Shown here: one piece after another, positions 1,250 through 42,089 of the stretch
How positions within the stretch are numbered: the stretch's first letter is position 1
Layout: the number at the start of each line of letters is the position of its first letter
Virus record (IMG/VR): IMGVR_UViG_2706794696_000015
Length of the DNA: 42,521 nt
From: a virus
Taxonomy: Duplodnaviria; Heunggongvirae; Uroviricota; Caudoviricetes
Strand: one strand, 5' to 3'
Translations under genes and position numbers: made by a program
The notes under the pieces: model-generated
Database searches by the model: none
Seen by the model: the letters and a program-made list of their open reading frames with translations, nothing else
What the model was told of the DNA's origin: nothing

Positions 1250-1531
1250 TTAGTGATGTTCTTTGCCCTTCTGTTTGCCTGTTCTGACCTGTTCCCACTC
1301 GATACGTCCTTCTTCTCGTCTTTTGTCTATGTATTCCGCAAGATCCTGAATATTGATGCAACGTTTTGCTTTTTGTGATGTACCGATGCGATATGTAGGT
1401 ACAGGCAACTTACAAGCGTTTGCTTTTGCTTCTGCTGTGGCTGGACTCATACCAAAGTATTTTTGACTAACTGCTGAGAGTTCAATGTTTGGGGTATTGA
1501 ATTCAGCCATCAGTAAAAACAAGGTATTCAT
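1250..1531 (-). CDS. Small DNA-binding protein, PrtN/excisionase-like (tentative)
   Basis: 93 aa ORF with a basic C-terminus; resemblance to PrtN/AlpA-type regulators is by eye only. Confidence 0.35.
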   Translation of the reverse strand: MNTLFLLMAEFNTPNIELSAVSQKYFGMSPATAEAKANACKLPVPTYRIGTSQKAKRCINIQDLAEYIDKRREEGRIEWEQVRTGKQKGKEHH

Positions 1532-1567
1532 ATCATTTCTCCATCATAACCGGCTGCACCCGGTGAG

Positions 1568-2362
1568 TTACTTATTCATTTCAATAATATTATTTTCTAT
1601 CATTGATTTATTTAAAACCAAAGAAGGAGCAAGATGGTTGTCTATTTTAAACAATGCATAACTTTTAAACTGTTGGTGATATCCGTAACTAATAAGGATG
1701 CTAGAAAAATCTCTTAATTCATCTTCTTTTAAAAAATTAAAATGAAATGGGTTGTCACCATTTATGAACAATGAAACATCTATTATGCAGTATTTCTCTC
1801 CGTTGTCATTTGCATAGAAAAAAATATAAGACATTCTGTTTGTTAAGACAATGCCATTAAATTTTCTTATGTCTGTAGCTATTTTGTTTTCCATGTTTGG
1901 TGCTACATATTTATTTTCAGAAATACATTTAATTTCATCTCCAGATGTCGTGATTATATAAAAATGAAACTTATCAGAAATATCTAACTTAACTACGCCA
2001 TCATTATTGTAAAGGCTGCTAAATTTTGGTGGTTCAACTTTTAAAGAATCATAGTTCTTTAAAAGAAGAGGGGAGTCAAATTTAATAACTTGTAGTATCC
2101 CTTTACCTTCAACCTCCATATTGATTGAAGATATAGCAATTGCATTATCTCTTTTATTATTCAGGATTATGGTTGATATATGCATGTCATATATTCTACT
2201 TGCATTTGCTGAATACGACACTGTCACCTTTTTTGATATTTTTTGCACGCCAAAATATATAGTGAAGGCAGCGGCAAGAATAGATAAGAATTTAATGTCA
2301 AATAAGGACCATAGCCACATTAGTTGCTCAATTGCTTCAGAGTTAATCATTTGCTTTACCAT
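1568..2362 (-). CDS. Hypothetical membrane-anchored protein in an AT-rich island (start uncertain: 2350, 2362, 2383 or 2401)
   Basis: Long ORF in strongly AT-rich DNA; N-terminal hydrophobic segment LWSLFDIKFLSILAAAFTIYFGV; no family recognised. Confidence 0.45.
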   Translation of the reverse strand: MVKQMINSEAIEQLMWLWSLFDIKFLSILAAAFTIYFGVQKISKKVTVSYSANASRIYDMHISTIILNNKRDNAIAISSINMEVEGKGILQVIKFDSPLLLKNYDSLKVEPPKFSSLYNNDGVVKLDISDKFHFYIITTSGDEIKCISENKYVAPNMENKIATDIRKFNGIVLTNRMSYIFFYANDNGEKYCIIDVSLFINGDNPFHFNFLKEDELRDFSSILISYGYHQQFKSYALFKIDNHLAPSLVLNKSMIENNIIEMNK

Positions 2363-2504
2363 TATCGCTGTAATACAACACATGTGTGTATATATACGCA
2401 ATGCAATTATTTTGCAAGTGCTTCATTTACTATCAATAGCTACGTCACGTTATTGTTTAATGGTTCTTTATAGGGGCGGCAATAGTTAAAATTATCGCTT
2501 CCGT

Positions 2505-6038: not shown

Positions 6039-6871
6039 ACAGTTTAACGGCAAATAACCGTTTGTCGCAACAGCTGGTGGTCAGCGTCGCTGAACACCTG
6101 TTGTTACGGCATGAATGCAGATTACCAAATCACCTGGCTGTAAGTAACCACAGAGAACTTTACCTGACTGTGGGGGGCGAGTTGTGCAGGAACTTAACCG
6201 CTGGTTTCGTGACGGAAGAGGACTTTATGTTCATGTTATTCGTTGGGAGCCAGAAACACAGCGCGTTATCTATCTTCGCAAAGACTACCCGCATGAGTGC
6301 TTTAGTCCTTTGTGGAAATTCAGGCGTGATTTTGTTGAGTGTGAAGGACCACCAGCACATTGATTCTGCCATTCCGGGACGTTACACTGTTCAGGCACCT
6401 TATAAAGCGGGTGCCGGGATTGGCGTCCTGGAATTGATCAAGGCGATATATGACGCGCCAGCGTCTTTTTTATCGTCCGCATTTGCTCACATCAAAGTTA
6501 TGGTGGGCTGGGCGGGGGCATCGAAAGATGCGCCGGTTTCCTTGATCACCGGTTACGCCAACCCCGTTCAGTTCACCACCAGCGAAATTGGCGTTTCCGG
6601 TGGTGGAAGTATTTCACCGATCAAGGAGGCTGCCATCATGGCTACTGTCCCAGCCCTCACTCGTCTGAATGATGAAGACTTACATAAACTCAGTTATGTA
6701 ACAACTGCACTACGTGCTCTGCGCAAGGTAACTCTTTCGGATCCGCAGGCACATCAGGTTCTGGTAGAAACCCTTCTTAACTTGCAAGCTGAACGTATTC
6801 GTCTGGCGGATAAGGCTAATTTTCATATTCACCGTCTCCTGAATATCAGCGGAGGGCATCGTCATGCTTAA
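6035..6871 (+). CDS. Hypothetical protein; possibly a composite of smaller genes
   Basis: 278 aa ORF; contains an internal ATG at 6638 with a strong AAGGAGG RBS (77 aa product) and a protein-like 59 aa alternative-frame ORF at 6184..6363. Confidence 0.35.
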   Translation: MNSLTANNRLSQQLVVSVAEHLLLRHECRLPNHLAVSNHRELYLTVGGELCRNLTAGFVTEEDFMFMLFVGSQKHSALSIFAKTTRMSALVLCGNSGVILLSVKDHQHIDSAIPGRYTVQAPYKAGAGIGVLELIKAIYDAPASFLSSAFAHIKVMVGWAGASKDAPVSLITGYANPVQFTTSEIGVSGGGSISPIKEAAIMATVPALTRLNDEDLHKLSYVTTALRALRKVTLSDPQAHQVLVETLLNLQAERIRLADKANFHIHRLLNISGGHRHA

Positions 6872-10598: not shown

Positions 10599-11594
10599 GT
10601 GACCGTGAGAGCACTACTGACCCCTGAAATTGCCCCGCGTATGGGGATCGTATTGTTCAGGCCAGGTTCAGAGCTGATGCCCCTGTTTATGCAGGGGCGT
10701 GTTCTGCTGGAGCCTGAGCCGGAACGTTATTCATCTTTCGCCAGTGGTGCCGTTCCGGCGGCATCACAACCGCTGGCGGATGATCCTGCCGTTCGGGCCG
10801 TGTTCCGCAATGAGGCAGTGATCCGTCGTGCTGGTGGCGTGGAATGTCTTGAAAGCTGGTTACTTCGTGAAAAAGGCTGCCAGTGGCCTCATTCCGACTG
10901 GCACAGCGAGAACATGACCACAATGCGACACGCTCCGGGCGCAATCCGTCTGTGCTGGCACTGCGATAACCAGCTGCGCGATCAGTTCACGGAACGGCTG
11001 GAATCAATGGCAACGGATAACTGTGCCCGCTGGGTGTTGTCTGTTGTGCGTCGGGATCTCGGTTTTGATGATAGTCACGTTGTGACAATGCCGGAACTGT
11101 GCTGGTGGCTGATTCGTAATGACCTGGCGGATGCCTTACCGGAAAGTGCAGCCCGTAAGGCACTGAGATTACCAAAGCCTGTTGTGCCGTCTGTCACCCG
11201 GGAAAGTGACCTTGTGCCTTCGGTTCCTGCCACCAGCATCATCCAGGATAAGGCAAAAAAGGTGCTGGCGCTGAAAGTGGATCCGGAGTCGCCGGAGTCT
11301 TTTATGTTACGCCCAAAACGCCGCCGCTGGGTTAATGAAAAGTACACGCGCTGGGTTAAGACACAGCCGTGTGCATGTTGTGGAAAGCCTGCTGATGATC
11401 CCCACCACCTGATAGGCCACGGTCAGGGTGGAATGGGTACAAAAGCGCATGACCTCTTTGTGTTGCCTTTGTGCAGAAAGCATCACGACGAGCTGCATGC
11501 GGATACCGTGGCATTTGAAGAGAAGTATGGCTCCCAGCTGGAGCTGATATTTCGTTTTATCGATCGTGCGCTGGCAATTGGCGTATTGGCGTAA
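10599..11594 (+). CDS. DUF968-type protein with C-terminal HNH-like Cys/His motif
   Basis: 331 aa, GTG start; C-terminal CACCGK...HHLIGHG...CRKHHDELH. Confidence 0.55.
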   Translation: MTVRALLTPEIAPRMGIVLFRPGSELMPLFMQGRVLLEPEPERYSSFASGAVPAASQPLADDPAVRAVFRNEAVIRRAGGVECLESWLLREKGCQWPHSDWHSENMTTMRHAPGAIRLCWHCDNQLRDQFTERLESMATDNCARWVLSVVRRDLGFDDSHVVTMPELCWWLIRNDLADALPESAARKALRLPKPVVPSVTRESDLVPSVPATSIIQDKAKKVLALKVDPESPESFMLRPKRRRWVNEKYTRWVKTQPCACCGKPADDPHHLIGHGQGGMGTKAHDLFVLPLCRKHHDELHADTVAFEEKYGSQLELIFRFIDRALAIGVLA

Positions 11595-11607
11595 GTGGAG
11601 AACGAGC

Positions 11608-12360
11608 ATGAACCTTGAAGCCTTACCAAAATATTACTCCCCAAAATCTCCAAAATTGAGCGATGACGCACCGGCGACAGGCTCAGGTGGTTTAACGATT
11701 ACGGATGTGATGGCTGCGCAGGGGATGGTGCAGTCGAAAGCACCGCTTGGGTTTGCCTTATTCCTGGCAAAAGTTGGTGTTCAGGATCCTCAATTTGCGA
11801 TTGAAGGTCTGCTCAATTACGCGATGGCACTGGATAACCCGACATTGAACAAATTGAGTGAAGAAACCCGGTTACAGATCATCCCTTACCTTGTGAATTT
11901 TGCCTTTGCTGATTATTCCAGGTCTGCGGCAAGTAAGGCTCGCTGTGAGCATTGTGCTGGTACTGGATTTCATAATGTATTGCGCGAAGTGGTGAAACAC
12001 TCCAGAAGCGGGGAATCTGTTATCAAGGAAGAGTGGGTGAAGGAACTATGTCAGCATTGCCATGGTAAGGGAGAAGTCAGCACAGCGTGCAGAGGGTGTA
12101 AGGGTAAAGGTATTGTCCTGGATGAAAAAAGAACCCGGCTTCATGGTGTGCCTGTTTATAAGATTTGTGGGCGTTGCAATGGCAACCGGTTTAGCCGTTT
12201 ACCAACCACACTGGCGCGGCATCATGTCCAGAAACTGGTACCGGACCTGACGGATTATCAGTGGTACAAAGGATATGCAGACGTTATTAATAAACTGGTT
12301 ACAAAGTGCTGGCAGGAAGAAGCGTATGCTGAATCGCAATTGAGAAAAGTGACAAGATAG
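11608..12360 (+). CDS. Q: Late-gene antiterminator Q (phage 82/21-type, zinc-finger)
   Basis: CxxCxGxG and CxxC motifs; followed by a promoter plus short terminated leader typical of PR'/tR'. Confidence 0.7.
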   Translation: MNLEALPKYYSPKSPKLSDDAPATGSGGLTITDVMAAQGMVQSKAPLGFALFLAKVGVQDPQFAIEGLLNYAMALDNPTLNKLSEETRLQIIPYLVNFAFADYSRSAASKARCEHCAGTGFHNVLREVVKHSRSGESVIKEEWVKELCQHCHGKGEVSTACRGCKGKGIVLDEKRTRLHGVPVYKICGRCNGNRFSRLPTTLARHHVQKLVPDLTDYQWYKGYADVINKLVTKCWQEEAYAESQLRKVTR

Positions 12361-12391
12361 ATAATTTTCGCCGAAGATGTCGACGTGATAC

Positions 12392-12420
12392 TTGCATTTT
12401 TCAAAAAATATGGATAAGAT
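12392..12420 (+). promoter_or_regulatory. PR'-like late promoter
   Basis: TTGCAT - 17 nt - TAAGAT downstream of Q, ~40 nt before a strong terminator. Confidence 0.45.
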
Positions 12421-12463
12421 TTTCTCAACGATGGGCCTTGTATGTCTACCGTTGGTAAATGTC

Positions 12464-12490
12464 AAAAACCCGCCGCTGAGCGGGTTTTTT
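12464..12490 (+). terminator. tR'-like rho-independent terminator (copy 1)
   Basis: AAACCCGC-CGCTGA-GCGGGTTT hairpin plus T6. Confidence 0.7.
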
Positions 12491-12639
12491 GTGCCTGATG
12501 TCTCATGAAACTATGAAATGGATTGGTGCGTTAAACATTTTTTCTTATTATCTTTTAGATTTTGGAGAGATGGTTAACGTCTGTATTCCAGAAACTCGAT
12601 GGTTATTTAATAAATTAGTTTCAATGATGCTTCTAGGTT

Positions 12640-13065
12640 ATGACTGTAATGAAAAAGGTATTAATAGCAGCGATAGGTTTTTGTTTAGTTGGTTGTGCAG
12701 GTATGAAATTACCTGAGTATTCGCAAGTTAAAGCAAGTCCGTATTATACAGATTGCCGTGCGTTTGCCATGGATGTTTATAAAAATGATGGATACAGCAA
12801 AATTGCGAAAACTACTATCCTTAGCATGGATGATGTGAAAGCTAGATATATTGTGACAGGGTGTGTAGTTGCTATGGGGAAAAACACTGTAGAGGAAATC
12901 AAAGCTGATCTCTCTGCTAAAGGGAGTTCTTTTGGGCTTATCAGTGGAGCTTGTTCTAGTGCGGCATGTCGGGTTGATGTAGAGCAGCAAATGAACGCTT
13001 ATGTACTTGGTAGTTATTATGCTGCAAATAAAAAATTCCCGGATAAAATGAAAGCAGAGTTTTAA
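12640..13065 (+). CDS. Lipoprotein of unknown function (moron)
   Basis: 141 aa; signal peptide with lipobox LVGC; AT-rich gene flanked by two copies of the same terminator. Confidence 0.6.
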   Translation: MTVMKKVLIAAIGFCLVGCAGMKLPEYSQVKASPYYTDCRAFAMDVYKNDGYSKIAKTTILSMDDVKARYIVTGCVVAMGKNTVEEIKADLSAKGSSFGLISGACSSAACRVDVEQQMNAYVLGSYYAANKKFPDKMKAEF

Positions 13066-13142
13066 GCAAACCTTGTTTTCGATTATATGTCGAAGATAAA
13101 TGTTAGTAACGGCATAATAAGTAAATATATAGCTGTGATAGC

Positions 13143-13168
13143 AACCCGCCACTGAGCGGGTTTTTTGT
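13143..13168 (+). terminator. tR'-like rho-independent terminator (copy 2)
   Basis: AACCCGCCACTGAGCGGGTTTTTT, differing from copy 1 by one base in the loop. Confidence 0.7.
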
Positions 13169-13288
13169 ACCCGTAAACTTGGTGCAGTACAGTAAACACG
13201 CTGGTGGTCGTGAATACTGACTTTTTATCTTGCTGGCTTTTTAGACAAGAGTTATTGGTATGTCATGTTAACCAGAAGGGAAAAAGAC

Positions 13289-13492
13289 ATGCTAAAACAG
13301 CAAGATATGACAGAAACCGCCGCCGCAGTCCTTCATTTCTTACCTGCTGACAAGTGGGTAACGCCACGCATGATGACGAGAACTACCGGAGTAAGCGAAG
13401 CCCGGTGCCAGTTAATACTGACTCAGTTAGTTCTGGCGGGTCTGGCGAAGGATAACGGCGGGTACGGGAATAAATTCAGACGCTGCCAGTAA
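13289..13492 (+). CDS. Hypothetical small protein (alternative start 13265)
   Basis: 67-75 aa ORF upstream of the methyltransferase. Confidence 0.35.
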   Translation: MLKQQDMTETAAAVLHFLPADKWVTPRMMTRTTGVSEARCQLILTQLVLAGLAKDNGGYGNKFRRCQ

Positions 13493-13642
13493 TGGCGGTT
13501 TCCTGCTGTGAAAATGGGCGGCTGGTGGGTGTTGGTAGCACCTGCCAGCCATTCGCTCATGCTTACTGGTCACAAGCGAACCACGGCCCACTGCTTTAGC
13601 GCAAAAGCAGAGTGAGCCTACCAGAGTTACGCTTACTGATCC

Positions 13643-14695
13643 ATGAAAAATACTGTAAAAATAAACAGTGTTGATTTAATCAACGCTGATTGCCTGCATT
13701 TTATTCAGTCCCTGCCTGATGATTCCATTGACCTGATTGTTACCGATCCGCCTTACTTCAAGGTGAAACCCAACGGTTGGGACAATCAGTGGAAAGGGGA
13801 CGAAGATTACCTTAAGTGGCTGGACCACTGTCTGGCCCAGTTCTGGCGGGTGTTGAAACCTGCCGGAAGCCTTTACCTGTTCTGTGGGCATCGCCTGGCA
13901 TCTGATATTGAGATCATGATGCGTGAACGTTTCAACGTGCTTAACCATATCATCTGGGCGAAGCCGTCCGGACGTTGGAATGGGTGTAATAAAGAAAGTC
14001 TGCGCGCATATTTTCCTGCCACAGAGCGCGTTCTGTTTGCTGAACATTACCAGGGGCCATATCGCGGCAAAAGTGACGGCTATGCGGCAAAAGAAAGGGA
14101 ACTCAAACAGCACATAATGGCACCGCTGATATCGTATTTCAGGGATGCTCGTGCCGAACTGGGTATAACGGCAAAACAAATTGCCGAAGCCACAGGTAAG
14201 AAAAATATGGTTTCCCACTGGTTTGGTGCCAGTCAGTGGCAGTTGCCGAATGAGGCTGACTATCGGAAGTTACAGGCACTGTTTTCCCGTATAGCGGCAG
14301 AGAAGTTTCAGGAACAACAACTGGAACAACCACACCACCAGCTGGTGGCATCTTATGATTCACTGAATCGTAAATATTCTGAATTGCTGGATGAGTTTAA
14401 ATCTCTCCGGCGCTATTTCTCCGTATCAGTCTCCGTGCCTTATACCGATGTCTGGATGCATAAACCCGTTCAGTTCTACCCGGGGAAACATCCGTGTGAG
14501 AAACCGGCGGATATGCTCAGGCAAATAATCAATGCCAGTAGTCGACCAGGTGATCTGGTTGCTGATTTTTTTATGGGATCCGGTTCCACAATAAAAGCAG
14601 CAATGGCGCTGGGGCGTCGGGCCTTAGGTGTTGAGCTTGAGTCAGAGCGGTTTAATCAGACAGTGAAAGAGATAAACGAGCTGGTGGGGAAATAA
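13643..14695 (+). CDS. Beta-class amino-DNA methyltransferase (N6A/N4C), no cognate nuclease seen
   Basis: DPPYF catalytic motif near the N-terminus and FxGxG (DFFMGSGST) near the C-terminus. Confidence 0.8.
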
Positions 14696-14702
14696 TCTGG
14701 TG

Positions 14703-14727
14703 GCCACGTCAGGTGGCCTTTTTATTT
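14703..14727 (+). terminator. Hairpin terminator after the methyltransferase
   Basis: GGCCAC-GTCAG-GTGGCC followed by TTTTTATTT. Confidence 0.5.
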
Positions 14728-14762
14728 CCATTACACAGCACCCGCATCTGCGAGGTGGGGTT

Positions 14763-14912
14763 ATGAAATCCATGGATAAGTTAACAACGGGTGTCGCCTA
14801 TGGCACCTCAGCAGGTAGTGCCGGGTACTGGTTTTTACAGTTGCTCGATAAAGTCACGCCCTCACAGTGGGCGGCAATAGGTGTGCTGGGTAGTCTGGTA
14901 TTTGGCTTGCTG
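14763..14912 (+). CDS. S: Holin (class II), 3' end lost in an assembly gap
   Basis: [50 protein letters not shown] with GAGGTGGGG RBS; matches the Stx-phage holin as I recall it. Confidence 0.7.
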
Positions 14913-15162
14913 NNNNNNNNNNNNNNNNNNNNNNNNNNNNNNNNNNNNNNNNNNNNNNNNNNNNNNNNNNNNNNNNNNNNNNNNNNNNNNNNNNNNNNNN
15001 NNNNNNNNNNNNNNNNNNNNNNNNNNNNNNNNNNNNNNNNNNNNNNNNNNNNNNNNNNNNNNNNNNNNNNNNNNNNNNNNNNNNNNNNNNNNNNNNNNNN
15101 NNNNNNNNNNNNNNNNNNNNNNNNNNNNNNNNNNNNNNNNNNNNNNNNNNNNNNNNNNNNNN
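14913..15162. other. Assembly gap (250 N)
   Basis: Run of N. Confidence 1.
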
Positions 15163-15229
15163 TTAAGTCACTGACCGGAACAGATAAACCTGTCCGTGGG
15201 CAGAAACCGATAAATCCTGATAAATATCC

Positions 15230-15763
15230 ATGAACGCAAAAATCAGATACGGCCTGTCGGCTGCCGTTCTGGCACTGATTGCCGTCGGTGCGCCCGCGCC
15301 TGATATTCTCGACCAGTTTCTGGATGAAAAAGAAGGTAACCACACAACGGCATACCGCGATGGGTCCGGCATCTGGACCATCTGTCGGGGTGCCACGATG
15401 GTGGATGGAAAACCCGTTTTTCCCGGTATGAAACTGTCGAAGGAAAAATGCGACCAGGTCAACGCCATTGAGCGTGATAAGGCGCTGGCATGGGTGGAGC
15501 GCAATATTAAAGTACCACTGACCGAGCCACAAAAAGCGGGTATCGCGTCATTTTGTCCCTATAACATTGGCCCCGGTAAGTGTTTTCCGTCGACGTTTTA
15601 TAAGCGGCTGAATGCTGGTGATCGTAAAGGTGCATGCGAGGCGATTCGCTGGTGGATAAAAGATGGTGGGCGCGATTGCCGCATACGTTCAAATAACTGC
15701 TATGGACAGGTTATTCGTCGTGACCAGGAAAGCGCATTAGCCTGTTGGGGGATAGATCAGTGA
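15230..15763 (+). CDS. R: SAR endolysin (phage lysozyme, GH24, phage 21 R-type)
   Basis: N-terminal signal-arrest-release segment [15 protein letters not shown] then lysozyme motifs [20 protein letters not shown]. Confidence 0.9.
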
Positions 15764-16227
15764 GCAGAGTCGCCGCGATTATTTATGCTCTGGTTATCTG
15801 CATCATCGTCTGCCTGTCGTGGGCGGTCAATCATTACCGTGATAACGCCATCGCCTACAAAGAACAGCGTGATAAAAAAGTCAGTGAGCTGAAGCAGGCG
15901 ACCGCCACCATTACTGACATGCAGCAACGCCAGCGTGCTGCTGATGTACTCGATGCTAAATACACGAAGGAGTTGGCTGATGCGAAAGCTGAAAATGATG
16001 CTCTTCGGCGCAAGCTTGATAATGGTGGTCGGGTGCTCGTCAAAGGAAAATGCTCTGTGCCATCCTCAGCCGAAACCTCCAGCGCCTCCGGCATGGGCAA
16101 TGATGCCACCGTCGAACTCTCTCCAGTTGCTGGACGAAACGTTCTCGGTATCCGGGACGGAATCATCAGAGACCAGACAGCACTGAGAACGCTTCAGGAA
16201 TATATCAGGACGCAATGCCTTCGATGA
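15745..16227 (+). CDS. Rz: Rz inner-membrane spanin (alternative GTG start at 15760)
   Basis: N-terminal [27 protein letters not shown] closely matches lambda Rz; overlaps the endolysin end. Confidence 0.8.
15980..16186 (+). CDS. Rz1: Rz1 outer-membrane lipoprotein spanin, embedded in Rz in the +1 frame
   Basis: [22 protein letters not shown] lipobox followed by a Pro-rich segment. Confidence 0.75.
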
Positions 16228-31961: not shown

Positions 31962-35054
<3,093 letters not shown>

Positions 35055-35353
35055 NNNNNNNNNNNNNNNNNNNNNNNNNNNNNNNNNNNNNNNNNNNNNN
35101 NNNNNNNNNNNNNNNNNNNNNNNNNNNNNNNNNNNNNNNNNNNNNNNNNNNNNNNNNNNNNNNNNNNNNNNNNNNNNNNNNNNNNNNNNNNNNNNNNNNN
35201 NNNNNNNNNNNNNNNNNNNNNNNNNNNNNNNNNNNNNNNNNNNNNNNNNNNNNNNNNNNNNNNNNNNNNNNNNNNNNNNNNNNNNNNNNNNNNNNNNNNN
35301 NNNNNNNNNNNNNNNNNNNNNNNNNNNNNNNNNNNNNNNNNNNNNNNNNNNNN
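35055..35353. other. Assembly gap (299 N) covering the J 3' end
   Basis: Run of N. Confidence 1.
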
Positions 35354-40189: not shown

Positions 40190-41560
40190 CTATGATATCC
40201 CTGAAATGTCCTCTTCAAGCTCTTTTACTGATTTCGCAATTTTAAATTTAAATTTTCTCTCTATTTCACTATTGCTAAGTTTTTTTTCATTCTCTTTCCC
40301 TATCCACATAGAAACAATTTCTCGTTTCTGAGATATATGTAGATTGTCAAAGTTAGGTATGTATTTAAAAGTCTCCGCTCTACCCCTGCGGAGTTCATAG
40401 AAAGTTTTAATCAAAGACTTTGGTTTTATTTCTGATGAAAGGCCGAATCGGCGGATAAGATTATTGATCGTATGATTAACAGCTCGAAGTTGAGCTGTTG
40501 ACGTTATTTGTGAGAAGTACGATACCCATCCCAATCGTTTACCTTCAAACACACATCCCGTAATTCTAAGATTTAGTTTCCACTGACAATATGCAACAGC
40601 TCGTTCTTTATCGCGCTTATTTTTAGCTTGTAGTAGAGCGTGTCTATATGCAGTAAAAATTTTTGCTAAGGATGACTCAAATCTAAGAATGCTCTCATGT
40701 TTTATCAATAATTCTCGATTTTTTATGTGGTAGCCCAAAAAGTTGAAACTTTCATCCAAGCTGCCTACTTTGGATTTTGAGTTCTCTTCATTTAATGGAT
40801 GTGGGTTTAAATTTAATGATTGAAGCTTATCAATGATATGAGAAGCTATTTTTGTTGCTTGATATTTTGGTGTTAAAATAAGAATGTCATCAACGTATCG
40901 CATGTACCATATGTCATGCATTTTATTGATTTCATCATCGAAATTAGATAGTGATATTTCAGCTAAAATGTTTGATATCGCTAATCCCTGAGGTACTCCT
41001 CTGGTATTATTAGGGATACCTTTGCTTCCTGTGGTTCCACTTACAGTAGGCACGATTAATGATGATGTTATTAACTGTCTAATTTCTTTTTTTCTAATTT
41101 TATTTTTTATTGCATTAATTATCAATTTATGTTCAATTGAAGGATAGAAACTTTTAAGATCTATTTTTGCATATTCAGCATATAGACTGTTGTTTAATGC
41201 TTCTTTCAATGAGTCAATTACTGTATGTGGTAGTTTTAATCTGGACTTAGGATATATTTCCGTAAGGCATTCACAGAGAGCTCTAAGAGTAATTCTGTCC
41301 CTAGCAGTTGGTATGGAAATCTGTCTGGGTGTAGAGTTAGCGCCTTTAGATATTAATTTTTCTTTATATGCTGTAAATTTGTAATTGCCAGAATTAACCT
41401 TTTCAAAAATGAAAGTGATCTCATTTTTTATTGTCAAATCAAGTTTTGATGGGCGAATCCGATCTATGCCAATCGCTCCTGATTCTTTGATTTTTTCAGA
41501 GTATACTTTTAGAAGATTTTTTTTCGAGAATGACTTTTTAAAAATTCTGCTTGCAGTCAT
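40190..41560 (-). CDS. Reverse transcriptase (retron / UG-Abi / DRT-like), with ~200 aa C-terminal extension
   Basis: RT motifs: catalytic Asp in KIDLKSFYPSI, RGVPQGLAISNILAEISL, YVDDILIL, FLGY; AT-rich gene; ATG 41560 (TTG 41566 alternative) overlaps upstream gene. Confidence 0.8.
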   Translation of the reverse strand: MTASRIFKKSFSKKNLLKVYSEKIKESGAIGIDRIRPSKLDLTIKNEITFIFEKVNSGNYKFTAYKEKLISKGANSTPRQISIPTARDRITLRALCECLTEIYPKSRLKLPHTVIDSLKEALNNSLYAEYAKIDLKSFYPSIEHKLIINAIKNKIRKKEIRQLITSSLIVPTVSGTTGSKGIPNNTRGVPQGLAISNILAEISLSNFDDEINKMHDIWYMRYVDDILILTPKYQATKIASHIIDKLQSLNLNPHPLNEENSKSKVGSLDESFNFLGYHIKNRELLIKHESILRFESSLAKIFTAYRHALLQAKNKRDKERAVAYCQWKLNLRITGCVFEGKRLGWVSYFSQITSTAQLRAVNHTINNLIRRFGLSSEIKPKSLIKTFYELRRGRAETFKYIPNFDNLHISQKREIVSMWIGKENEKKLSNSEIERKFKFKIAKSVKELEEDISGIS

Positions 41561-42089
41561 AGTCAATCCAAAGATATATTAATGGGAGTATATAAAGTGC
41601 GGCAGTAATAAATATTCGAAGTAATATCCATAAAATAACAATTATTTTTTCTTTTTGTGTGGGGATCCTCGTCTTAAGTCCAACTTGAGTTACCCTTGAA
41701 ATTTTATCATCTATGTCACGGTGATTCTCAACCTCATTGAGCAAATTAAAATATTTTTCTTTCTGTTCAAGAGATAACTGTTGACTGGTGGTAATGTCAA
41801 AATAGAGTCGCTGTAGTGCAATATAATTCCTTCTCATGGCTATTGCTCGACCACGAAAATCTAGGTTAGATACGATCAGAGAAATACCCAGTAGAGCCAC
41901 TGAAAGTATCGCCGCAACGACATCTGTATTATCTCCTAGAACCTTTGGAAATCGCAACGTTACAATTGAAAGTACCGCACTCAATATAGCATACCAAACG
42001 AGGATAAATTGAGAGTGTTTTTCAAGCCATTCTAGTCGATGGTGCGCTTGGATACGTGCTTTATATGTAAACCAAATATTGTCATGCAT
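41538..42089 (-). CDS. Small multi-pass membrane protein coupled to the RT (candidate effector)
   Basis: 183 aa; hydrophobic segments FILVWYAILSAVLSIVTL, VVAAILSVALLGISLIVSNL and IIVILWILLRIFITAALYILPLIYLWI; AAGGA RBS; 3' end overlaps the RT start by 23 nt. Confidence 0.6.
   Translation of the reverse strand: MHDNIWFTYKARIQAHHRLEWLEKHSQFILVWYAILSAVLSIVTLRFPKVLGDNTDVVAAILSVALLGISLIVSNLDFRGRAIAMRRNYIALQRLYFDITTSQQLSLEQKEKYFNLLNEVENHRDIDDKISRVTQVGLKTRIPTQKEKIIVILWILLRIFITAALYILPLIYLWIDYDCKQNF

What the first reader, a model, noticed from the sequence alone, without database searches (positions are those of the whole stretch)
12464..13168. Lipoprotein moron bracketed by a duplicated 25-bp terminator
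Two near-identical terminators (AACCCGCCGCTGAGCGGGTTTTTTGT at 12466-12491 and AACCCGCCACTGAGCGGGTTTTTTGT at 13143-13168) flank an AT-rich gene for a 141-aa lipoprotein (lipobox LVGC). The arrangement looks like insertion of a foreign gene into the PR'-tR' leader with duplication of the terminator; Q-mediated antitermination would express the lipoprotein late. The product has no motif I recognise; known prophage lipoprotein morons include exclusion and serum-resistance factors.
Basis: partly seen in the sequence, partly recalled or inferred. Interest (0 to 1): 0.5.

Follow-up and report, generated by a model that had tools for sequence, protein, structure and literature searches.

The report
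Lipoprotein gene cassette between duplicated terminators
A lambda-like E. coli prophage carries an extra, AT-rich gene for an uncharacterised outer-membrane lipoprotein just after its late-gene terminator, with a second copy of that terminator behind it; this is a textbook accessory gene ("moron") whose function is still unknown.

Summary
A 29-nt terminator (27/29 identical) occurs twice, at 12467-12495 and 13143-13171, and nowhere else in the window. The copies bracket 647 nt of 36% GC DNA, against 50% for the window. That DNA holds a real gene (12649/12640-13065) under strong purifying selection (dN/dS about 0.1), with an invariant lipobox cysteine and four other invariant cysteines.

Otherwise collinear phages and prophages (SfV, vB_EcoM-720R4, 264 complete E. 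coli genomes) have one terminator and no gene at this spot. 215 genomes carry the filled form, as do mEp460, Ayreon, 15 Stx2c phages and an Stx2k phage.

The left copy is tR' of a lambda-type late control region: a Q-lambda homologue and a PR' with the AACGAT pause element at lambda's spacing. The terminator is a mosaic junction where Q modules, this cassette, stx genes and lysis modules are joined. Recombination between phages, not transposition, best explains the duplication.

The likely logic is inferred, not shown. Q-modified polymerase reads through both copies, so the lipoprotein is the first late product. In lysogens the second copy keeps cassette transcription out of the lysis and stx genes.

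The protein is an orphan helical family with no informative sequence or fold match. It also occurs in Klebsiella phage-plasmids and Serratia chromosomes. Verdict: a new member of a known kind, of moderate to low interest.

The parts
11608..12360 (+). Q antiterminator gene (250 aa from ATG 11608; the mechanical ORF starts at GTG 11566)
   Evidence: Pfam PF03589 Antiterm, E=7e-54. It is homologous to Q-lambda chains in PDB 7ubm/7ubn (E=3e-37) and 4mo1. Relatives are annotated as 753-nt antitermination protein Q.
12392..12432 (+). Late promoter PR' with promoter-proximal pause element: -35 TTGCAT 12392-12397, 17-nt spacer, -10 TAAGAT 12415-12420, tttctc, AACGAT 12427-12432, GGG
   Evidence: The geometry matches lambda PR' read from NC_001416: TTGACT-17-TAAATT-tgactc-AACGAT-GGG. 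The region is invariant in all six aligned relatives. The assignment rests on resemblance, not on transcript mapping.
12467..12495 (+). Terminator copy 1, the tR' of the Q/PR' module (hairpin 12467-12486, T tract to 12492)
   Evidence: It is the only terminator at this position in empty-site relatives and is annotated as a terminator in SfV and Ayreon. The predicted PR'-tR' RNA is about 60-65 nt.
12496..12648 (+). AT-rich 5' region of the cassette (31% GC) with a candidate sigma-70 promoter (TTGGTG 12523-12528, 17 nt, TATTAT 12546-12551) and Shine-Dalgarno AGG 12635-12637
   Evidence: The hexamers match 8 of 12 positions, below the scan threshold. The aligned Salmonella site TTGGTA-18-TATCAT scores 9 of 12. 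The region as a whole is only 60% identical to Salmonella, like third codon positions, so the promoter is a candidate only.
12649..13065 (+). Lipoprotein gene (138 aa from ATG 12649, or 141 aa from ATG 12640); lipobox L-V-G-C at 12685-12696; Ala at position +2
   Evidence: ORF. Alignment of 8 relatives shows invariant Gly-Cys of the lipobox and invariant C39, C75, C105 and C110. dN/dS is 0.08-0.18 with saturated synonymous sites. The AlphaFold2 model is helical, with pLDDT 79 and pTM 0.75. It matches phrog_4748, of unknown function.
13066..13142 (+). AT-rich 3' untranslated spacer with a predicted stem-loop; absent from the Salmonella cassette
   Evidence: With the terminator, the fold has a z-score of -3.85. 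In Salmonella the second terminator follows the stop codon directly.
13143..13171 (+). Terminator copy 2, the first bases of the downstream late-gene module
   Evidence: In 19 of an even-step sample of 30 from 1,500 matching E. coli records, homology to the window starts exactly here (query position 782-783, which is window 13142-13143). The same is seen with an empty-site query.
13265..16227 (+). Downstream late genes shielded by the terminators: 75-aa phrog_331 protein (13265-13492), DNA methyltransferase (13643-14695), holin region (partly N-masked), endolysin (15230-15763), Rz (15745-16227) and Rz1 (15980-16186)
   Evidence: and annotation of relatives.

Best explanation
The segment 12496-13171 is a horizontally acquired accessory-gene cassette (a moron) sitting immediately after tR' of a lambda-type late operon. 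It carries a second copy of tR' at its own 3' end.

Origin (inferred from comparison). The terminator is a short sequence shared at the borders of several modules: the end of the Q/PR' module, the start of the cassette and the start of the downstream late module. Recombination between lambdoid genomes at or next to this joint produces both the filled and the empty arrangement. The two 29-nt copies would also allow precise loss of the cassette.

Expression logic (inferred, not measured). In a lysogen, PR' fires constitutively and stops at copy 1, giving an RNA of about 60-65 nt. Any read-through, or any transcript from the candidate promoter in the AT-rich 5' region, stops at copy 2. The lysis genes, and stx2c or stx2k in the toxin phages that carry the same cassette, therefore stay silent. 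This makes the second terminator the feature that lets the insertion be tolerated. After induction, Q-modified RNA polymerase ignores both terminators and the lipoprotein is the first late protein made.

Product. The sequence features are shown; the biochemistry is inferred. It is a Sec/LspA-processed lipoprotein with no Asp at position +2, so the Lol pathway should sort it to the outer membrane. It has a compact helical periplasmic domain with four invariant cysteines that could form two disulfides.

Function (my best guess). It alters the cell envelope to the advantage of the lysogen or the phage. Blocking a surface receptor or DNA entry (superinfection exclusion, as with Cor, Llp or Ltp) is the single most likely role, at about 0.35. 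Protection against serum or envelope-targeting toxins follows at about 0.2, and a role in the phage's own lytic cycle at about 0.15.
For: - Repeat and hairpins.
- Presence/absence polymorphism with identical flanks: (215 filled and 264 empty among 5,426 complete E. coli genomes).
- Deviant base composition.
- Lambda-type control region: a Q-lambda homologue and PR' with AACGAT at lambda's spacing.
- PR' is constitutive and terminated at tR' in lysogens, as established for Stx phages in PMC7547250.
- The terminator is a module joint. Partial matches start at 13143 or end at 12490.
- The same Q/PR' is followed by a terminator variant and then stx1AB.
- Other Q genes, with reverse-strand morons, are joined to the same terminator and downstream module.
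- The same cassette is followed by different modules in PhiR47_1, O111:H8, Stx2c and Stx2k phages.
- Salmonella-type relatives have an unrelated Q, then the same terminator, a homologous 5' UTR, the gene and a diverged second terminator, with mosaic breaks after it.
- The gene is real.
- It is a self-sufficient single gene in other settings, namely Rac-like early regions beside vapBC, about 110-kb phage-plasmids of Klebsiella, Cronobacter, Citrobacter and Buttiauxella, and Serratia chromosomes.
Against: - There are no expression data of any kind.
- The candidate promoter matches only 8 of 12 positions, and its region is no better conserved than third codon positions.
- Terminator efficiency and Q read-through are assumed from homology.
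- The function has no support from homology. Nothing was found in Pfam, NCBIfam or PADLOC. The PHROG is of unknown function. There is no fold match in the PDB or BFVD.
- Relatives in Serratia chromosomes, with no phage around them, show that the protein does not need a phage partner. This weakens phage-specific roles.
- Whether the cassette travels with a particular tail receptor-binding type could not be tested, because the J C-terminus is masked in the window.
- The direction of change (gain or loss) at any given site cannot be told from the sequences.
Confidence: 0.6

Rival explanations
1. The gene is a lysogenic-conversion gene expressed mainly from its own promoter in the repressed prophage. 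Q-driven late expression is incidental. The flanking terminators serve only to isolate this small independent transcription unit.
For: This fits the moron definition, which includes an own promoter and terminator for expression from repressed prophages (PMC3594210). A promoter-like TTGGTG-17-TATTAT aligns with TTGGTA-18-TATCAT in Salmonella. Relatives lie where Q cannot act: beside vapBC in Rac-like prophages, after dnaE in phage-plasmids, and in Serratia chromosomes.
Against: The promoter match is weak (8 of 12) and the region is not specifically conserved. In E. coli and Salmonella lambdoid phages the gene keeps the same orientation and the first position of the late transcript behind two unrelated Q types. 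That would be unnecessary for a purely lysogenic gene.
Confidence: 0.35
2. What selection favours is the tandem terminator, not the gene. Two tR' copies in series lower basal read-through into the lysis and stx genes, and the lipoprotein gene is a passenger.
For: Both copies are intact in every filled site examined. The cassette lies upstream of stx2c and stx2k. An Stx1 phage with the same Q also has two hairpins in series after PR'.
Against: The gene is under strong purifying selection (dN/dS 0.08-0.18). It is kept in settings without tR'. Single-terminator forms are at least as common (264 against 215 genomes), so one terminator is evidently enough.
Confidence: 0.1
3. The duplication is a target-site duplication made by a transposition-like or site-specific insertion of the cassette into the terminator.
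For: Direct repeats flank the insert exactly, and the empty site holds one copy.
Against: 29 nt is far longer than known transposase target duplications (established knowledge). The 647-nt insert has no transposase, integrase or terminal inverted repeats. In Salmonella the second terminator is a diverged variant rather than a copy. The terminator is a homology boundary for many unrelated module combinations.
Confidence: 0.05
4. The ORF is not a functional gene, or the repeat is a chance similarity between two ordinary terminators.
For: No family or fold match exists. Many E. coli terminators share CCCGC...GCGGG stems (general knowledge).
Against: dN/dS is about 0.1 across relatives of 54-76% identity, with invariant cysteines. 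The exact protein occurs on at least 1,000 contigs. The repeat identity includes the loop and 5 nt past the T tract, and 0 of 100 shuffles give two matches.
Confidence: 0.02

Closest known systems
Morons of lambdoid phages as defined for HK97/HK022 (Juhala et al. 2000; reviewed in Cumby et al. 2012, PMC3594210)
   Same: It is extra DNA absent from collinear relatives. Its GC content differs from the neighbours. It is a single gene with its own terminator, and it probably benefits the host.
   Different: An own promoter is not demonstrated. The terminator is a copy of the phage's own tR' rather than an unrelated one. The cassette sits in the late-operon leader, so Q should also drive it.
stx1/stx2 genes of Shiga-toxin phages (cargo between Q/PR'/tR' and the lysis genes, expressed by Q antitermination; Wagner et al. 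2001, as cited in PMC4809568; PMC7547250)
   Same: It has the same genomic slot and the same predicted dependence on read-through of tR'. The very same Q/PR' module is followed by stx1AB in phage Lys8385Vzw. The cassette lies upstream of stx2c and stx2k in toxin phages.
   Different: The product is an envelope lipoprotein, not a toxin. The cassette restores a terminator behind itself.
Lambda Bor / Iss outer-membrane lipoprotein (serum resistance; Barondess and Beckwith 1995, as cited in PMC3594210)
   Same: It is a small prophage-encoded lipoprotein accessory gene in the late region of a lambda-like phage.
   Different: There is no sequence similarity (no Pfam match of any kind). Bor lies after the lysis genes on the opposite strand and is expressed in lysogens (from memory). 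The predicted fold here is helical.
Cor (phi80, N15, HK022, mEp167) and T5 Llp: outer-membrane lipoproteins that inactivate FhuA and exclude superinfecting phages (from memory, not tested against their sequences)
   Same: It is a small phage-encoded lipoprotein sorted to the outer membrane. This is the most plausible kind of function.
   Different: No sequence relationship was detected through the Pfam, PHROG or PADLOC libraries. The protein is about twice the size of Cor or Llp. No link to a receptor type could be tested.
Ltp of Streptococcus phage TP-J34 (142-aa helical lipoprotein that blocks DNA injection; from memory)
   Same: It is a prophage lipoprotein of almost the same length with an all-helical domain.

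Membership tests
Moron (accessory transcription unit of temperate phages; definition in PMC3594210) | Extra DNA that is absent from otherwise collinear relatives | tested here: met
   SfV, 720R4, D53-1 and 2A lack 676 bp and are otherwise alignable. 264 genomes are empty and 215 filled.
Moron (accessory transcription unit of temperate phages; definition in PMC3594210) | Base composition different from the surrounding genes | tested here: met
   35.7% GC, against 47-49% in the flanking genes and 50.4% for the window.
Moron (accessory transcription unit of temperate phages; definition in PMC3594210) | Own terminator | tested here: met
   There is a hairpin plus T6 at 13143-13168 directly behind the gene. 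Salmonella relatives also have a terminator right after the stop codon.
Moron (accessory transcription unit of temperate phages; definition in PMC3594210) | Own promoter giving expression from the repressed prophage | tested here: inconclusive
   The only candidate is TTGGTG-17-TATTAT (8 of 12). The aligned Salmonella site scores 9 of 12. There are no transcript data.
Bacterial lipoprotein (Lgt/LspA/Lnt substrate) | N-terminal signal peptide ending in a lipobox [LVI][ASTVI][GAS]C | tested here: met
   The N-terminus is MKKVLIAAIGFCLVG|C. Gly-Cys is invariant in 8 relatives. A home-made regular expression based on the PROSITE PS51257 pattern does not match the window protein, apparently because of Cys at position -4, but it matches the Salmonella orthologue.
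Bacterial lipoprotein (Lgt/LspA/Lnt substrate) | Actual lipid modification and outer-membrane location | not testable with these tools
   Ala at position +2 (Ser in Buttiauxella) predicts Lol sorting to the outer membrane. This is inference from the +2 rule only.
Lambda-type late control region (Q, PR' with qut, tR') | Q protein homologous to Q-lambda | tested here: met
   PDB 7ubm, E=3e-37; PF03589.
Lambda-type late control region (Q, PR' with qut, tR') | Promoter followed by a -10-like pause element at lambda's spacing, then an intrinsic terminator | tested here: met
   TAAGAT-tttctc-AACGAT-GGG in the window, against TAAATT-tgactc-AACGAT-GGG in lambda. The terminator lies 35 nt further on. 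Function was not assayed.
Known prophage envelope factors (Bor/Iss, Lom/Ail, TraT, Cor, Llp) and known defence proteins | Sequence or fold similarity to the family | tested here: not met
Transposon or insertion sequence with target-site duplication | Transposase or integrase and terminal inverted repeats within the insert | tested here: not met
   The only conserved ORF is the lipoprotein gene. No terminal inverted repeats were found.

The most novel reading that the evidence does not exclude
The tR' hairpin may act as a portable recombination joint, a short sequence kept at the borders of unrelated Q modules, cargo cassettes (this lipoprotein, stx, other morons) and lysis modules. Late-leader cargo could then be swapped, gained and precisely lost among lambdoid phages of E. 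coli and Salmonella. In addition, the cargo here may be the founding member of a new family of helical, disulfide-bonded outer-membrane lipoproteins that protects the cell envelope (phage exclusion or toxin immunity). That family is shared by lambdoid prophages, SSU5-like phage-plasmids and Serratia chromosomes.
Probability: 0.2. Interest if true: 0.6.

Novelty: new member of a known kind. Interest (0 to 1): 0.33.

Why it matters
The gene is common. It is found in about 4% of complete E. coli genomes and on at least 1,000 contigs with the identical protein. It also occurs in about 200 Klebsiella, Cronobacter and Citrobacter phage-plasmids. In Stx2c and Stx2k phages it sits directly upstream of the toxin genes, yet it has no name or known function.

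If it blocks phage entry or protects the envelope, it would affect phage therapy, prophage competition and STEC ecology. The two-terminator bracket is a clear natural example of how a phage can accept cargo in front of its lysis genes without leaking lethal transcription. It also shows a terminator doubling as a module joint. None of this changes current concepts; it extends them.

Tried and rejected
- **Family and fold searches for the lipoprotein.** Pfam, NCBIfam and PADLOC gave nothing. The only PHROG hit is of unknown function.
- **Deep profile search.** A search of 1.84 billion representative proteins found only 8 hits, all close relatives or fragments plus one remote 141-aa lipoprotein among transposases.
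- **Rfam on 11500-14000.** Only sub-threshold chance matches to terminator-containing leaders were found. The PR'-tR' RNA here is about 60-65 nt, unlike the 258-nt StxS precursor (PMC7547250). I claim no StxS homology.
- **Link to a tail receptor-binding type.** I tested whether the cassette travels with a particular J type. This failed because the last ~100 residues of J are masked by N in the window.
- **Link to the low-toxin 'Q21' allele of the stx2c literature.** The Q21 primer as I recalled it has no match in the window or in the 8.9-kb Q-to-stx2c stretch of Stx2c phage PV98-693 held as L003. I claim no link.
- **Other ORFs in the insert.** The 75-aa ORF 12489-12716 (phrog_37626; annotated in part in Ayreon) and the antisense 147-aa ORF 12709-13152 are rejected as genes. 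No gene is called there in the Salmonella relative, and the region aligns only with many indels.
- **3' flank of the left copy.** GTGCCTGATGT resembles the SfV-type tR' flank GTGCCTTGATGT. The match is too short to carry weight, so I do not build on it.
- **Second lipoprotein.** The 99-aa lipoprotein that accompanies the gene in phage-plasmids has no counterpart in the window.
- **Literature searches.** Searches on mEp460, Stx2c, lipoprotein and moron found no paper on this gene.

Full report
**1. The observation**

The window holds one 29-nt direct repeat at 12467-12495 and 13143-13171. The copies are 27/29 identical and 676 nt apart.

Each copy is a 7-bp GC-rich hairpin (AACCCGC / GCGGGTT) with a 6-nt loop and a T6 tract. 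Between the copies lie 647 nt of 35.7% GC, against 50.4% for the window and 47-49% for the flanking genes. This stretch contains an ORF at 12640-13065. The second ATG, at 12649, is better placed behind AGG 12635-12637 and gives MKKVLIAAIGFCLVG|CAG, a classical lipobox.

**2. The gene is real**

Relatives of 54-76% identity keep the lipobox Gly-Cys and four further cysteines (C39, C75, C105, C110) invariant. Pairwise dN/dS is 0.08-0.18, with synonymous sites near saturation. The identical protein is recorded on at least 1,000 contigs, always as 'hypothetical protein'.

AlphaFold2 predicts a compact helical domain after the signal peptide, with pLDDT 79 and pTM 0.75.

Two other ORFs overlap this region: a 75-aa ORF at 12489-12716 and the antisense ORF at 12709-13152. 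Neither is supported, because the Salmonella relative has no gene there and aligns only with indels.

**3. Setting**

Upstream lie KilA-N, DUF968 and a 250-aa Q gene (PF03589). This Q is homologous to Q-lambda of PDB 7ubm (E=3e-37).

Directly after Q comes TTGCAT(12392)-17 nt-TAAGAT(12415)-tttctc-AACGAT(12427)-GGG. Lambda PR', read from NC_001416, is TTGACT-17-TAAATT-tgactc-AACGAT-GGG. This is therefore a lambda-type PR' with its promoter-proximal pause element. The first repeat copy, 35 nt further on, is tR'. The predicted terminated RNA is about 60-65 nt.

Downstream of the second copy are a 75-aa protein, a DNA methyltransferase, the holin (masked), the endolysin and Rz/Rz1.

**4. Relatives with and without the insert**

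Phages SfV and vB_EcoM-720R4, and prophages of E. coli D53-1 and 2A, have the same Q, PR' and downstream genes. They have exactly one terminator and no gene. In D53-1 and 720R4 both flanks are those of the filled sites.

Among 5,426 complete E. coli genomes, 215 carry at least 80% of the filled region and 264 carry the empty form.

Filled sites occur in the following phages:
- mEp460
- Ayreon, where both terminators are annotated
- PhiR47_1
- 15 Stx2c phages
- phiSTEC1575-Stx2k

In the toxin phages the order is Q, terminator, lipoprotein, terminator, 75-aa gene, a methylase-sized ORF or HTH-protein gene, tRNA genes (annotated in the Stx2k phage), then stx2.

**5. The terminator is a module joint**

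I looked at an even-step sample of 30 of the 1,500 matching E. coli records:
- In 19, homology begins exactly at the first base of the right copy.
- In 4, it ends at the last T of the left copy.

The same pattern appears with an empty-site query. Several examples show what is joined there:
- The same Q/PR' is followed by a terminator variant and then stx1AB in phage Lys8385Vzw.
- Phages cdtI and PhiR40_1 have a different, short Q plus reverse-strand morons, joined to a slightly degenerate copy of the terminator and the same downstream module.
- PhiR47_1 and an O111:H8 prophage have other modules after the right copy.
- Salmonella-type relatives (76% and 73% protein identity) have an unrelated Q (DUF1133/PF06530). 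After it come nearly the same terminator, a homologous but diverged 5' region, the gene, and immediately a second, diverged terminator. Homology to the window begins at the terminator, and the two Salmonella-type loci diverge from each other right after the second terminator.

Three further points bear on the mechanism. The insert has no transposase, integrase or terminal inverted repeats. A repeat of 29 nt is too long for a target duplication. The Salmonella pair is not a fresh copy.

I therefore conclude that the bracket arose by recombination between lambdoid genomes that each contributed a tR'-type terminator. It can spread through flanking homology, and it can be lost by recombination between the repeats. 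This is inference from comparative anatomy. The direction of change at any one site is unknown.

**6. How it most likely works**

Established knowledge says that PR' of lambdoid and Stx phages is constitutive and is stopped at tR' in lysogens. Q-modified polymerase reads through terminators (PMC7547250). Applied here, the gene would be the first late gene after induction.

In lysogens the first copy stops PR' transcripts. The second copy stops read-through and any transcript that starts inside the AT-rich 5' region. This protects the cell from expression of the holin and endolysin, or of Stx. The second copy is therefore the feature that makes cargo tolerable at this spot.

An own promoter is only a candidate. 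TTGGTG-17-TATTAT matches 8 of 12 positions. It aligns with TTGGTA-18-TATCAT in Salmonella, but it lies in a region no better conserved than third codon positions.

**7. Other contexts**

Relatives of the gene lie in places that Q cannot control:
- beside vapBC in Rac-like early regions of Salmonella prophages
- after dnaE in about 110-kb phage-plasmids of Klebsiella (194 records), Cronobacter, Citrobacter and Buttiauxella, where a second 99-aa lipoprotein follows
- as a lone gene in Serratia chromosomes, for example between emrAB and a SpoU methylase

The protein is therefore self-sufficient and is not tied to late expression or to a phage partner.

**8. Function**

No family, defence-system or fold match was found. 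From its features, the product should be lipidated and sorted to the outer membrane. It should face the periplasm with a helical domain that may be disulfide-stabilised.

By analogy with known small lipoproteins of mobile elements, I rank the possible roles as follows:
- blocking of a receptor or of DNA entry: about 0.35
- protection from serum or envelope-targeting toxins: about 0.2
- a role in the phage's own lytic cycle: about 0.15
- something else: the remainder

A test for association with a tail receptor-binding type failed because that part of J is masked in the window.

**9. Comparison and novelty**

The cassette meets three of the four defining features of a moron (PMC3594210). The fourth, an own promoter, is undecided. 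It occupies the slot used by the stx genes. It resembles Bor, Cor, Llp and Ltp in kind only, not in sequence or fold.

The sequences are in public databases, and Ayreon's annotators marked both terminators. I found no paper on the gene.

**Verdict.** This is a new member of a known kind, and the interest is moderate to low (0.33). Interest would rise if the protein proves to be a new exclusion or immunity factor, or if the terminator joint proves to be a general vehicle for late-leader cargo.

Noticed in passing
window 40190-42089 (- strand): A reverse transcriptase (PF00078, 458 aa) overlaps a SLATT_5 two-transmembrane effector protein (PF18160, 183 aa). They lie at the right end of the prophage, after the tail-fibre genes. 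The pair looks like a retron- or DRT-type anti-phage defence cargo.
   Followed up: no
window 1450-2400 (ORF 1568-2401, - strand): This is the lowest-GC stretch of the window, at about 28%. It holds a 277-aa ORF with no Pfam match, next to a PrtN-like activator gene (1250-1531). It may be another acquired accessory gene.
   Followed up: no
L011 (phage PhiR40_1) 1930-2376, - strand: An unrelated 148-aa lipoprotein (lipobox I-S-G-C, no Pfam match) sits in reverse orientation between a short Q gene and the same terminator and downstream module. The Q-to-terminator slot has therefore collected different lipoprotein genes independently.
   Followed up: partly
L009 6446-6745; L014 3928-4227; L015 3928-4227: In the ~110-kb phage-plasmids the lipoprotein gene is followed, 10 nt later, by a second conserved lipoprotein gene (99 aa, lipobox L-S-G-C). 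This suggests a two-protein unit there. No counterpart exists in the window.
   Followed up: partly
L025 and L026 3001-3417 (Serratia chromosomes): Relatives of 55-58% identity sit as lone genes between an emrAB-like efflux operon and a SpoU-type methylase gene, each side with its own terminator and no phage genes nearby. A third copy (L024) lies beside a LysR regulator and an alpha/beta hydrolase. This may be the cellular source of the family.
   Followed up: partly
L012 (Stx1 phage Lys8385Vzw) 2603-2660 and 2800-2860: After the same PR', two different hairpin terminators stand in series about 200 nt apart. Both are followed by ...ATCCTGTG, upstream of stx1AB. This may be another small terminator-bracketed insert.
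   Followed up: no
L007 (Salmonella) about 6560-6810: Right after the second terminator lies only the C-terminal part of the DNA methyltransferase reading frame (matching ...[20 protein letters not shown]...). It is a remnant showing that a recombination joint cut the methylase gene.
   Followed up: no
window 13066-13171: The 77-nt AT-rich spacer between the stop codon and the second terminator folds, together with the terminator, into a stable structure (z = -3.85, 0 of 200 shuffles as stable). It is absent from the Salmonella cassette. It could be a 3'-UTR element or nothing.
   Followed up: no
window 14913-15162, 33506-33834, 35055-35353: Three runs of N mask part of the holin region and two parts of the tail-tip J gene, including its receptor-binding end.
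   Followed up: yes
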